Of a stretch of 20,981 nucleotides of DNA, positions 1-725 are shown piece after piece. Each line of letters opens with the position of its first letter. The stretch's first letter is position 1. Under the pieces are notes generated by a model. It worked only from the letters and a program-made list of their open reading frames with translations, had not been told where the DNA came from and made no database searches. Origin of the DNA: a virus (Duplodnaviria; Heunggongvirae; Uroviricota; Caudoviricetes); IMG/VR virus record IMGVR_UViG_2529293049_000007; one strand, given 5' to 3'. The position numbers and the translations under genes were made by a program.

Positions 1-249
1 ATGCGTATTGAAATCTGCATAGCCAAAGAAAAAATGACTAAAATGCCAACCGGTGCTGTGGATGCGTTAAAGGAAGAATTAACCCGACGCATCAGTAAAC
101 GTTATGACGATGTAGAGGTGATCGTAAAAGCTACCAGCAACGATGGCCTTTCTGTTACGCGCACCGCCGATAAAGATTCAGCTAAAACTTTTGTTCAGGA
201 AACTCTGAAAGATACCTGGGAGTCTGCTGACGAGTGGTTTGTTCACTAA
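1..249 (+). CDS. DinI-family DNA-damage-inducible protein (prophage cargo); promoter lies upstream of the window
   Basis: 82-aa ORF starting at base 1 with ATG; sequence MRIE..IAK...[16 protein letters not shown] matches the size (~81 aa) and conserved C-terminal WESAD-WFV signature of E. coli DinI as I recall it. Confidence 0.75.
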
Positions 250-384
250 TTAGCACGTAAAATCTGTAACGGCTGGAAATCATTCAATACTCGCACTATC
301 GGAAGTTCACCAGCCAGCCGCGGTACGTTCTTACATACGATGTACCGCTGTTCTCTTTACGATTTATAGCTGTACTGGTGAATT

Positions 385-645
385 ATGAGCAATCTGAATC
401 CATGCATGACGTGTGGTGCCTGTTGTGCATTTTCCGCGTCTCTTTTTACTGGGCAGACGCTGACGATGCTGGCGGAAAGGTTCCGGTCAGTCGCTCTGGC
501 GGGAACTCCGGGTGAAAACGCATATTGCTCTGTTTACAAAAACCGTCCGTCCACATGCAGGGAATTCGCAATGTCCGGAGAAAATGGCATCGCGAATGAA
601 GCATGTAACCGCGCACGGGAAAAATATGGATTTCCCAAAATCTGA
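385..645 (+). CDS. YkgJ-like Cys-cluster (CxxCxxCC) putative metal-binding protein, shorter than typical family members
   Basis: 86-aa ORF, ATG at 385 with GGTGA 3 nt upstream; N-terminal [12 protein letters not shown] and later [20 protein letters not shown] resemble the YkgJ/UPF0153 family; followed by a terminator. Confidence 0.55.
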
Positions 646-703
646 ATATTCTCCGCCGTGCAAAAATGCGAACAACATCACTTCACTAATCAGCCTGATA
701 TGG

Positions 704-725
704 CATAGTTAGCACGCTAACTATG
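704..725. repeat. perfect 22-bp palindrome (10-bp arms, 2-nt spacer): CATAGTTAGC-AC-GCTAACTATG
   Basis: Read directly from the sequence; lies in the convergent intergenic region between the YkgJ-like gene and the minus-strand ORF at 788..1483. Confidence 0.6.

What the first reader, a model, noticed from the sequence alone, without database searches (positions are those of the whole stretch)
243..725. Duplicated 3'-end motif and a 22-bp perfect palindrome
TTCACTAAT followed by TAGCACG occurs at the 3' end of the DinI-family gene (243-258) and again after the YkgJ-like gene (682-716, with a 19-nt insert between the two halves). In the second copy TAGCACG sits at the centre of a perfect 10-2-10 palindrome (704-725). 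The arrangement could be a recombination junction or cassette boundary, a protein-binding operator, or an RNA hairpin; I cannot tell which.
Basis: seen in the sequence. Interest (0 to 1): 0.45.

Follow-up and report, generated by a model that had tools for sequence, protein, structure and literature searches.

The report
Chance repeat plus ordinary intergenic hairpin
The "duplicated motif" is a chance match between two unrelated prophage modules, and the palindrome is the tip of an ordinary non-coding stem-loop beside a terminator that one base change has made perfect in the O104:H4 outbreak lineage.

Summary
The window is the tail end of a lambdoid prophage at yecE in E. coli O104:H4. The first copy is at 242-257, not 243-258.

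The 9+7 split repeat is not more than chance. It appears in 9% of shuffled 1-kb sequences. Its 7-mer half depends on one lineage-specific base. The two copies sit in modules with separate histories:
- Copy 1 is the last codons of dinI plus its 3' flank.
- Copy 2 lies in a ~150-bp non-coding block (634-787) between the ykgJ-like pseudogene and the convergent tail-fibre-assembly gene. The block also occurs in prophages that have no dinI or ykgJ.

No homology breakpoint, att core or invertase site coincides with either copy.

The palindrome is real, but in most relatives it is an imperfect inverted repeat with a C/C mismatch at 708/721. It is perfect only in seven O104:H4 genomes and strain PM4-5 (G708). 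Strain MLI104K2 carries a different perfect version (A708/T721). These are separate single-base "corrections" of a quasi-palindrome.

The palindrome sits 33 nt upstream of a + strand intrinsic terminator whose function is kept in diverged copies. My best reading is an RNA stem-loop in the untranslated overlap of two convergent transcription units. The strand and the function are unproven. Interest is low.

The parts
1..249 (+). dinI-like gene, the first gene inside the prophage end. Its SOS box and promoter lie just left of the window.
   Evidence: ORF. RefSeq annotates it as a DinI-like family protein. A LexA-box-like TACTGTATACAAACACAGT is seen upstream in L001. VT1-Sakai carries an annotated SOS box in the same place.
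242..257 (+). Motif copy 1, TTCACTAAT+TAGCACG. It is the last codons of dinI (GTT CAC TAA) plus 8 nt of 3' flank.
   Evidence: In other dinI phages the second half reads TAACACG (2H10, H10407, NE1127) or AAACACG (VT1-Sakai). K-12 has ATCACGAATTAGTACG.
320..365 (+). Hairpin (320-329 paired with 339-348) followed by a U-rich tail. This is the probable terminator that ends the dinI unit.
   Evidence: Fold. Many prophages and phages share homology with the window only up to about 340-352.
385..645 (+). ykgJ-like degenerate gene. It is a mosaic: the 5' part is ~92% identical to chromosomal ykgJ and the 3' part is of a prophage type. It carries a 1-nt deletion and a 68-nt deletion.
634..787 (.). Conserved non-coding block between the ykgJ-like gene and the convergent tail-fibre-assembly gene. 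It is found at prophage ends inserted at serX, yecE, ompW, prfC, potB and yodB, with or without dinI and ykgJ.
659..682 (+). C/A-rich segment, the best conserved part of the block. It contains ACAACATCAC, which is perfectly complementary to the GcvB R1 seed.
   Evidence: Conservation. Predicted duplex of -23.7 kcal/mol, in the top 0.15% of 24-mers in the window.
682..716 (+). Motif copy 2: TTCACTAAT, a 19-nt gap, then TAGCACG.
   Evidence: TTCACTAAT is invariant in close variants but is not kept in the diverged copies SCU-111 and M1.
704..725 (.). Perfect 10-2-10 palindrome. It folds as a 9-bp stem with a 4-nt loop on either strand. In most relatives it is a quasi-palindrome with a mismatch at 708/721.
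689..738 (-). Possible extended stem of about 21 bp (689-697 with 730-738, 699-701 with 726-728, 704-712 with 717-725). It forms only on the - strand because it needs G.U pairs.
   Evidence: The - strand fold has z = -2.9 against -1.35 for the + strand. 94.8% of cells are paired on the - strand against 77.5% on the + strand. The structure was derived from this sequence, and the register is not kept in SCU-111.
700..727 (+). Weak sigma-70-like match, ATGGCA-16-TATGAT, overlapping the palindrome.
   Evidence: 2 such sites found in 1 kb against 1.1 expected, so not significant. TATGAT/TATAAA-like hexamers are kept in the variants.
758..785 (+). Intrinsic terminator, CGGGACTGGTCGTGGTCCCG followed by T8. 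It faces the 3' end of the tail-fibre-assembly gene.
   Evidence: In the diverged copies it is replaced by different G+C stems with a T-run on the same strand: SCU-111 GGGGCC...GGCCCC and M1 GGGGGA...TCCCCC.
788..1483 (-). Tail-fibre-assembly gene (DUF4376), the last gene of the late operon. Homology with relatives runs without a break from the block into this gene.

Best explanation
The finding is two separate things.

(1) The repeated TTCACTAAT...TAGCACG is a coincidence. Copy 1 is the stop-codon region of the dinI unit. Copy 2 is part of an unrelated ~150-bp non-coding block. In this phage the two were brought within 440 bp of each other by recombination inside ykgJ.

(2) The palindrome is the tip of a stem-loop in the untranslated gap between two convergent transcription units.
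- On the + strand, transcripts of dinI and ykgJ, and in the excised circular phage the xis-int read-through, end at the intrinsic terminator at 758-785. This terminator shields the tail genes from antisense transcription.
- On the - strand, the late tail operon ends at the tail-fibre-assembly stop codon at 788.

I infer that the stem-loop acts at the RNA level as a 3'-end structure: a barrier to 3'-exonucleases or a processing site. It is normally an imperfect inverted repeat. Its perfection here comes from one C-to-G change at 708. That is the kind of change expected from template switching at quasi-palindromes, or from selection for pairing.

Shown: the anatomy, the independent distribution of the two copies, the allele pattern, and the conservation of the terminator. 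Inferred: that the hairpin functions as RNA, on which strand, and what it does.
For: Chance and independent modules:
- Split repeats of this kind occur in 9% of 1-kb shuffles.
- The dinI copy occurs in thousands of genomes that lack the block. The block occurs in prophages without dinI or ykgJ.
- The 7-mer of copy 1 differs by one base in 2H10, H10407, NE1127, VT1-Sakai and K-12.
- The window's ykgJ is a mosaic joined near 498-508.
- No homology breakpoint falls on either motif.

Hairpin:
- The inverted repeat is present in all ~60 sampled copies of the block.
- Pair 707/722 changes from A-T to G-C in A8 and O170.
- Pair 708/721 is G-C here and in PM4-5, and A-T in MLI104K2. Their nearest relatives, L028 (C/C) and L023 (C/T), differ from them in the block only at 708 and in the length of the T-run.
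- Fold z-scores are -3.9 and -3.2 for the 31-mer on the two strands.

Terminator and orientation:
- The terminator is canonical on the + strand and is functionally replaced in diverged copies.
- xis and int are on the + strand at the other prophage end, so int read-through in the circular form runs into this region.

A second perfect 22-bp palindrome sits between two head genes (16383-16404). This shows that intergenic hairpins are a routine feature of this late operon.
Against: - The block is no better conserved than the adjacent coding sequence (91-98% against 89-95%; only 73% in SCU-111). There is therefore no sign of special constraint.
- In most relatives pair 708/721 is mismatched, and a few other pairs are broken.
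- Base changes that discriminate between the strands are split 4 for the - strand against 2 for the + strand, so the acting strand is unresolved.
- The extended - strand stem was derived from this same sequence, and its register is not kept in SCU-111.
- No expression data were available.
Confidence: 0.55

Rival explanations
1. The palindrome has no function. It is a neutral quasi-palindrome in hitch-hiking non-coding DNA. Replication template switching occasionally makes it perfect.
For: The block is no more conserved than the neighbouring coding DNA. The commonest allele is mismatched at 708/721, and five different base combinations occur there. Two separate single-base changes at 708 each copy the complement of the partner base. 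This is the signature described for quasi-palindrome-associated mutations in E. coli (PMC7202029) and for template switching that creates hairpins (PMC8794818).
Against: The inverted repeat persists in every copy, including the 73%-identical SCU-111 copy (inner stem only). Pair 707/722 shows a compensated double change.
Confidence: 0.25
2. The block acts like lambda tI/sib. In the circular phage, xis-int transcripts cross attP and end or are processed here, which sets int expression by retroregulation.
For: int and xis are on the + strand at the far prophage end. The att core is 261-281 nt left of the window. In relatives lacking dinI and ykgJ, the hairpin lies about 275 nt and the terminator about 330 nt beyond the att core, just past the arm-type repeats, on the int-transcript strand. 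In lambda, the tI hairpin (ATTAGCGCAAG...CTTGCGCTAAT followed by T6) lies about 150-190 nt beyond the core on the int strand. That this hairpin is tI/sib is my own knowledge, not a tool result.
Against: The + strand folds only into two short stems of 8-9 bp. It shows no helix of about 20 bp of the kind RNase III needs. In this phage about 900 nt, including dinI with its own terminator-like hairpin, separate att from the block. There is no significant sequence similarity to the lambda P-arm/tI region (local alignment p = 0.32).
Confidence: 0.07
3. The palindrome is an operator overlapping a promoter (ATGGCA-16-TATGAT, 700-727) for a short RNA of about 52 nt running from about 734 to the terminator at 785.
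For: A promoter-like match was found. The hexamers are kept or improved in variants, with TATAAA in A8, O170 and SCU-111. The size resembles the 51-60-nt prophage small RNAs of EHEC (PMC4104026).
Against: The promoter match is at chance level (2 found, 1.1 expected). No other copy of the half-site exists in the window. No regulator gene is adjacent. No RNA family matches. The palindrome is imperfect in most relatives.
Confidence: 0.06
4. The two motif copies mark a recombination junction or cassette boundary around ykgJ (att site, invertase site or transposon target duplication).
For: The 9-bp direct repeat flanks 431 bp that include ykgJ. The dinI-ykgJ spacer belongs to a segment reported to hold a secondary attachment site, attB-in-PP_2 (PMC8112680).
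Against: No relative shows an empty site or a breakpoint at either motif. Relatives without ykgJ keep a decayed ykgJ 3' end in front of the block rather than a clean junction. There is no Hin/Gin-type core in the window, and no recombinase gene within the 6 kb annotated to the right of the window start. The yecE att core is outside the window. The repeat is at chance level.
Confidence: 0.03

Closest known systems
Stem-loop plus intrinsic terminator at the end of a prophage 'moron' or early-left transcription unit (as in the lambda b region, and in morons with their own promoter and terminator)
   Same: Non-coding hairpins at the end of accessory genes placed between the tail-fibre genes and att. 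A canonical G+C stem with a U-tract faces the late operon. The unit is exchanged between phages as part of a mosaic module.
   Different: The palindrome itself is A+T-rich and has no U-tract, so it is not a terminator. Its role as a stability or processing element is inferred, not shown.
Lambda tI/sib retroregulatory element
   Same: It lies just beyond the attP arm on the strand transcribed from int, and combines a hairpin with a terminator. It would be separated from int in the prophage and rejoined to it in the circular phage.
   Different: No long RNase III-type helix forms on the + strand. There is no sequence similarity to lambda. In this phage dinI and a ykgJ remnant lie between att and the element.
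Quasi-palindrome mutational hotspots in E. coli (template-switch mutations; PMC7202029, PMC8794818)
   Same: An imperfect inverted repeat in which single-base changes convert a mismatch into the exact complement of the opposite arm. This is seen at least twice at position 708.
   Different: Here the process is inferred from natural variants, not measured. Selection for RNA pairing would give the same pattern.
AgvB/AsxR prophage anti-sRNAs of EHEC (PMC4104026)
   Same: A prophage-borne non-coding region with a C/A-rich stretch complementary to the GcvB R1 seed, followed by a hairpin and a U-tailed terminator.
   Different: AgvB and AsxR lie downstream of PR' at the Q/stx moron site, not next to the tail-fibre genes. 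No sequence or Rfam match was found. Transcription and Hfq binding of this region are unknown.
attB-in-PP_2, the 96-bp secondary attachment site in the ykgJ/ecpE-like segment of prophage ends (PMC8112680)
   Same: The window carries the same kind of dinI-ykgJ segment. Positions 192-475 are ~92% identical to the chromosomal ecpE-ykgJ region, and motif copy 1 lies within that segment.
   Different: The 96 bp are defined only in an image file that I could not read. Motif copy 2 and the palindrome lie outside the segment. No prophage is inserted there in this window.

Membership tests
Site-specific recombination site (att core or cassette boundary) | Homology between relatives breaks exactly at the site | tested here: not met
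   Breakpoints are at about 343-352, 452-475, 498/508, 634-662, 727 and 989. None falls at 242-257 or 682-716.
Site-specific recombination site (att core or cassette boundary) | Identity with the att core of the resident integrase | tested here: not met
   The 21-bp yecE core (PMC8112680) matches L001 5720-5740, which is 261-281 nt left of the window. It has no match in the window.
Hin/Gin/Cin/Pin invertase crossover site | A 26-bp site with AAACC-NN-GGTTT around a 2-bp core, and an invertase gene nearby | tested here: not met
   No match in the window with up to 1 mismatch. No invertase is annotated within the 6 kb to the right of the window start, whereas relatives 2H10 and H10407 do carry one next to dinI. 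The consensus is from my own knowledge.
Transposon or IS target-site duplication | Direct repeats flank an element with terminal inverted repeats and a transposase, and empty sites exist in relatives | tested here: not met
   The 431 bp between the 9-mers hold only spacer and a ykgJ remnant. No empty site was found. The repeat is at chance level.
Rho-independent terminator | G+C-rich stem followed directly by a U-tract | tested here: not met
   This applies to the palindrome 704-725. It has 3 G-C pairs of 10, is followed by GATAACAAAC, and is not called by the scan. The neighbouring element at 758-785 does meet the definition.
Lambda sib/tI-type retroregulator | Lies beyond attP on the int-transcript strand | tested here: met
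   int and xis are on the + strand at the other prophage end. The att core is left of the window. The hairpin and terminator are on the + strand.
Lambda sib/tI-type retroregulator | The read-through transcript forms a long helix (about 20 bp) that RNase III can cut | tested here: not met
   The + strand fold shows only 8-9-bp stems. A stem of about 21 bp forms only on the opposite strand.
Lambda sib/tI-type retroregulator | RNase III-dependent control of int expression | not testable with these tools
   This needs rnc mutants and int reporters.
Known RNA families (Rfam 15) | Covariance-model match at or near the gathering score | tested here: not met
   No hit at gathering score in the whole window. 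The best permissive hit in 600-820 has E = 0.57 and 16 bits against a cut-off of 45.
Prophage anti-sRNA or GcvB sponge (AgvB-like) | Complementarity to the GcvB R1 seed | tested here: met
   A 10-nt perfect match and a predicted duplex of -23.7 kcal/mol. However, 17 loci in 42 kb of this window do as well, so p is about 0.05 for the block.
Prophage anti-sRNA or GcvB sponge (AgvB-like) | A discrete, Hfq-bound transcript with its own 5' end, located at the PR' moron site | tested here: inconclusive
   The location differs from that described in PMC4104026. The promoter-like match is at chance level. No expression data were available.
Quasi-palindrome template-switch hotspot | Mutations convert a mismatch into the complement of the opposite arm | tested here: met
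   L028 (C708/C721) against the window and PM4-5 (G708/C721). L023 (C708/T721) against MLI104K2 (A708/T721). Each pair differs in the block only at 708 and in T-run length.

The most novel reading that the evidence does not exclude
The conserved block (about 655-785, + strand) may be released from the ykgJ/int read-through transcript, or made from its own promoter, as a small Hfq-type RNA. Its C/A-rich 5' part (659-682) would sequester the GcvB R1 seed. That would make it a second, tail-end class of prophage anti-sRNA alongside AgvB, and the palindrome would be its structural middle hairpin.
Probability: 0.06. Interest if true: 0.55.

Novelty: new member of a known kind. Interest (0 to 1): 0.15.

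Why it matters
It matters little.
- The work removes a suspected cassette boundary or att site from consideration.
- It shows that the perfect palindrome comes from a single-base allele seen almost only in the O104:H4 outbreak lineage. That base (G708) could serve as a lineage marker.
- It gives a tidy natural example of a quasi-palindrome being "corrected" at least twice.
- Only the unproven possibility that the block yields a GcvB-binding RNA would be of wider interest.

Tried and rejected
- Rfam at gathering score on the whole window and at permissive threshold on 600-820: nothing credible.
- AgvB/AsxR identity: rejected, because those lie at the PR' moron site (PMC4104026) and nothing matched.
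- Homology of the block to the lambda P-arm/tI region. By eye I saw ACAACAT, TCACTA and TTAGC...GCTAA in both, and TCACTAAT resembles the lambda Int arm-type site. The local alignment is not significant (p = 0.32).
- Unrestricted RNA duplex prediction against full-length GcvB was uninformative. I replaced it with a scan restricted to the R1 seed.
- Small ORFs or a type I toxin in the block: only 2-11-codon ORFs, and a 43-codon ORF whose ATG is lost in relatives.
- Hin/Gin-type site search: none found.
- Excess conservation of the block over the neighbouring coding sequence: not found.
- Deciding the strand of the hairpin from G.U against A.C changes: 4 against 2, so undecided.
- Scans of GTDB species-representative genomes with two patterns: 0 hits. 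GenBank phage records: 0 hits.
- Mapping the 96-bp attB-in-PP_2: not possible, because it is given only in TIF figures.
- A simple terminator scan did not call lambda tI. I read the hairpin from the sequence instead.
- A literature search for O104:H4 small-RNA catalogues returned nothing.

Full report
**Observation.** The sequences are there.
- TTCACTAAT is at 242-250 and TAGCACG at 251-257. The first copy is therefore one base left of the stated coordinates.
- The second copy is TTCACTAAT at 682-690, a 19-nt gap, then TAGCACG at 710-716.
- CATAGTTAGC-AC-GCTAACTATG at 704-725 is a perfect 10-2-10 palindrome.

The split repeat is within chance. A 9-mer followed within 25 nt by a shared 7-mer occurs in 187 of 2000 Markov shuffles of the first kilobase, and about 53 times per shuffled 21-kb window. 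One search lists several other 9-11-nt repeats in the same kilobase.

The palindrome is rarer. A perfect inverted repeat with arms of 10 or more and a spacer of 6 or less appears in 22 of 200 shuffled windows (mean 0.15). The real window has two, the other at 16383-16404.

**Context.** The window is 100% identical to E. coli O104:H4 (2011 outbreak lineage), in a prophage of about 48 kb inserted at yecE.
- The 21-bp yecE att core lies 261-281 nt left of window position 1. It is followed by repeated TGCCCCA motifs, which are probably integrase arm sites, and by an SOS box.
- The order is then: dinI-like gene (1-249, +); a hairpin with a U-rich tail at 320-365; a degenerate ykgJ-like gene (385-645, +); a non-coding block (634-787); and the convergent late genes on the - strand: tail-fibre assembly (788-1483), tail fibre, lom and J.
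- xis and int sit at the other prophage end on the + strand. In the circular phage, int read-through would therefore enter this region on the + strand.

**The two motif copies belong to modules with separate histories.**
- Copy 1 is GTT CAC TAA, the last codons of dinI, plus 8 nt. This dinI end occurs in thousands of genomes and in many phages that lack the block. Their homology runs on past the motif to about 343-352 or about 474.
- The TAGCACG half depends on one base. 2H10, H10407 and NE1127 read TAACACG, VT1-Sakai reads AAACACG, and the K-12 ecpE-ykgJ spacer, which holds a dinI remnant, reads TAGTACG.
- Copy 2 lies in a block found in 96 of 5426 complete E. coli genomes, 22 IMG/VR contigs and 13 metagenome contigs. 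It is absent from 50,697 GenBank phage records and from the GTDB species representatives.
- The block sits next to the tail-fibre-assembly gene in prophages at serX, yecE, ompW, prfC, potB and yodB. Several of these have no dinI and no ykgJ.
- The window's ykgJ is itself a mosaic. Positions 192-475 are ~92% identical to the chromosomal ecpE-ykgJ region. The 3' part and the block are of a prophage type. The join near 498-508 carries a 68-nt deletion. The 3' flank of K-12 ykgJ is unrelated to the block.
- No homology breakpoint among relatives falls on either motif. There is no Hin/Gin-type site in the window, and no recombinase gene is annotated near this end of the prophage.

The junction or cassette reading is therefore not supported.

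**The palindrome.** About 60 copies of the block were sampled.
- The commonest form is CATACTTAGC-AC-GCTAACTATG, with a C/C mismatch at 708/721. Five base combinations occur at that pair.
- The exact 41-mer around the perfect form occurs only in seven O104:H4 genomes. Strain PM4-5 has one mismatch in the 41-mer but keeps the perfect 22-mer, in a yecE prophage that lacks dinI and ykgJ.
- MLI104K2 has a different perfect palindrome, with A708/T721.
- The closest relatives of these perfect forms are L028 (C/C) and L023 (C/T). Each differs from its perfect counterpart in the block only at 708 and in T-run length.
- So at least two separate changes each installed the complement of the opposite arm. 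This is the signature of template switching at quasi-palindromes (PMC7202029, PMC8794818), or of selection for pairing.
- Pair 707/722 shows a compensated change from A-T to G-C in A8 and O170.

On 11 distinct variants the 9-bp inner stem is kept about equally on both strands. A longer stem of about 21 bp forms only on the - strand, through G.U pairs: 94.8% of cells paired against 77.5% on the + strand, with fold z-scores of -2.9 and -1.35. That structure was derived from this same sequence, and its register is not kept in the 73%-identical SCU-111 copy. One-sided changes that discriminate between strands split 4 to 2, so the acting strand is undecided.

The block is no better conserved than the adjacent coding DNA.

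**The terminator.** At 758-785 there is a canonical + strand terminator, an 8-bp G+C-rich stem followed by T8. In the diverged copies SCU-111 and M1 it is replaced by different G+C stems with a T-run on the same strand. Its function is therefore conserved. It stops + strand transcription just before it would run antisense into the tail genes.

**Mechanism.** My best reading (confidence about 0.55) has two parts. The repeat is coincidental. The palindrome is an RNA stem-loop in the untranslated overlap of two convergent units, acting as a 3'-end stability or processing structure next to the real terminator.

The rivals are:
- A functionless quasi-palindrome (0.25).
- A lambda tI/sib-like element (0.07). 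The position and strand fit. But no long helix forms on the + strand, and there is no similarity to lambda.
- An operator and promoter for an RNA of about 52 nt (0.06). The promoter match is at chance level.
- A recombination site (0.03).

**Speculative lead.** The best conserved part of the block (659-682, + strand) is C/A-rich. It can pair with the GcvB R1 seed through a 10-nt perfect match, with a predicted energy of -23.7 kcal/mol. This is in the top 0.15% of 24-mers, but it gives only p of about 0.05 for a block of this size. The published GcvB antagonist AgvB lies elsewhere in prophages (PMC4104026). I give this reading about 6%.

**Relation to known work.** The dinI-ykgJ segment is the kind of prophage end in which a 96-bp secondary attachment site, attB-in-PP_2, was described (PMC8112680). 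Its coordinates are given only in image files, so I could not map it. Motif copy 1 lies inside the homologous segment. Copy 2 and the palindrome lie outside it.

**Verdict.** The repeat is chance. The palindrome is a real but ordinary intergenic hairpin whose perfection is a lineage-specific allele. Novelty is low (an unannotated member of a known kind). Interest is 0.15.

Noticed in passing
window 16383-16404: A second perfect 22-bp palindrome, TCAGGCCACCATGGTGGCCTGA (11-0-11, G+C-rich). It lies in the short gap between the stop of the upstream head gene and the start of the major capsid gene on the - strand. It is probably an intercistronic mRNA stem-loop.
   Followed up: partly
window 385-645 (around 434 and 498-508): The ykgJ-like gene has a 1-nt deletion and, further on, a 68-nt deletion relative to intact prophage and chromosomal ykgJ. 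The deletions total 69 nt, so the frame is restored after a scrambled stretch of about 20 codons. RefSeq annotates it as two fragments.
   Followed up: partly
window 192-475; L034 480-815 (K-12 ecpE-ykgJ): The chromosomal ecpE-ykgJ spacer of K-12 contains a decayed 3' part of a dinI gene and the same downstream hairpin. The chromosomal ykgJ locus therefore looks like an old prophage end. This segment is the source of the published attB-in-PP_2 site (PMC8112680).
   Followed up: partly
L007 about 1589 and L018 (serX prophage remnants); window equivalent about 727: In two degraded prophages, homology to the block stops 2-3 nt beyond the right arm of the palindrome and joins to a lom fragment. 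This deletion endpoint sits right next to the inverted repeat.
   Followed up: no
window 659-682 (+): The most conserved stretch of the block contains ACAACATCAC, complementary to the GcvB R1 seed. A-to-G changes in L005 and M1 would keep the pairing as G.U.
   Followed up: partly
window 682-690 and 242-250: TCACTAAT equals the core of lambda Int arm-type sites (GTCACTAT/A, from my own knowledge). This prophage appears to use TGCCCCA repeats near its att, and alignment to the lambda P arm was not significant.
   Followed up: partly
window 1676-1780 and about 2235: 45-nt tandem and dispersed repeats encode collagen-like Gly-X-Y stretches in the tail-fibre gene. They inflate any repeat count for the window.
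   Followed up: no
L001 5800-5990 (just left of the window): Four TGCCCCA repeats lie between the yecE att core and dinI and are likely integrase arm-type sites. A LexA-box-like TACTGTATACAAACACAGT lies 13 nt before the dinI start.
   Followed up: no
L035 (phage 2H10) and L036 (H10407): In other phages the same dinI unit lies between an integrase gene and an invertase/tail-fibre switching region. The dinI unit (about -70 to 352 in window terms) therefore moves as a self-contained module.
   Followed up: no
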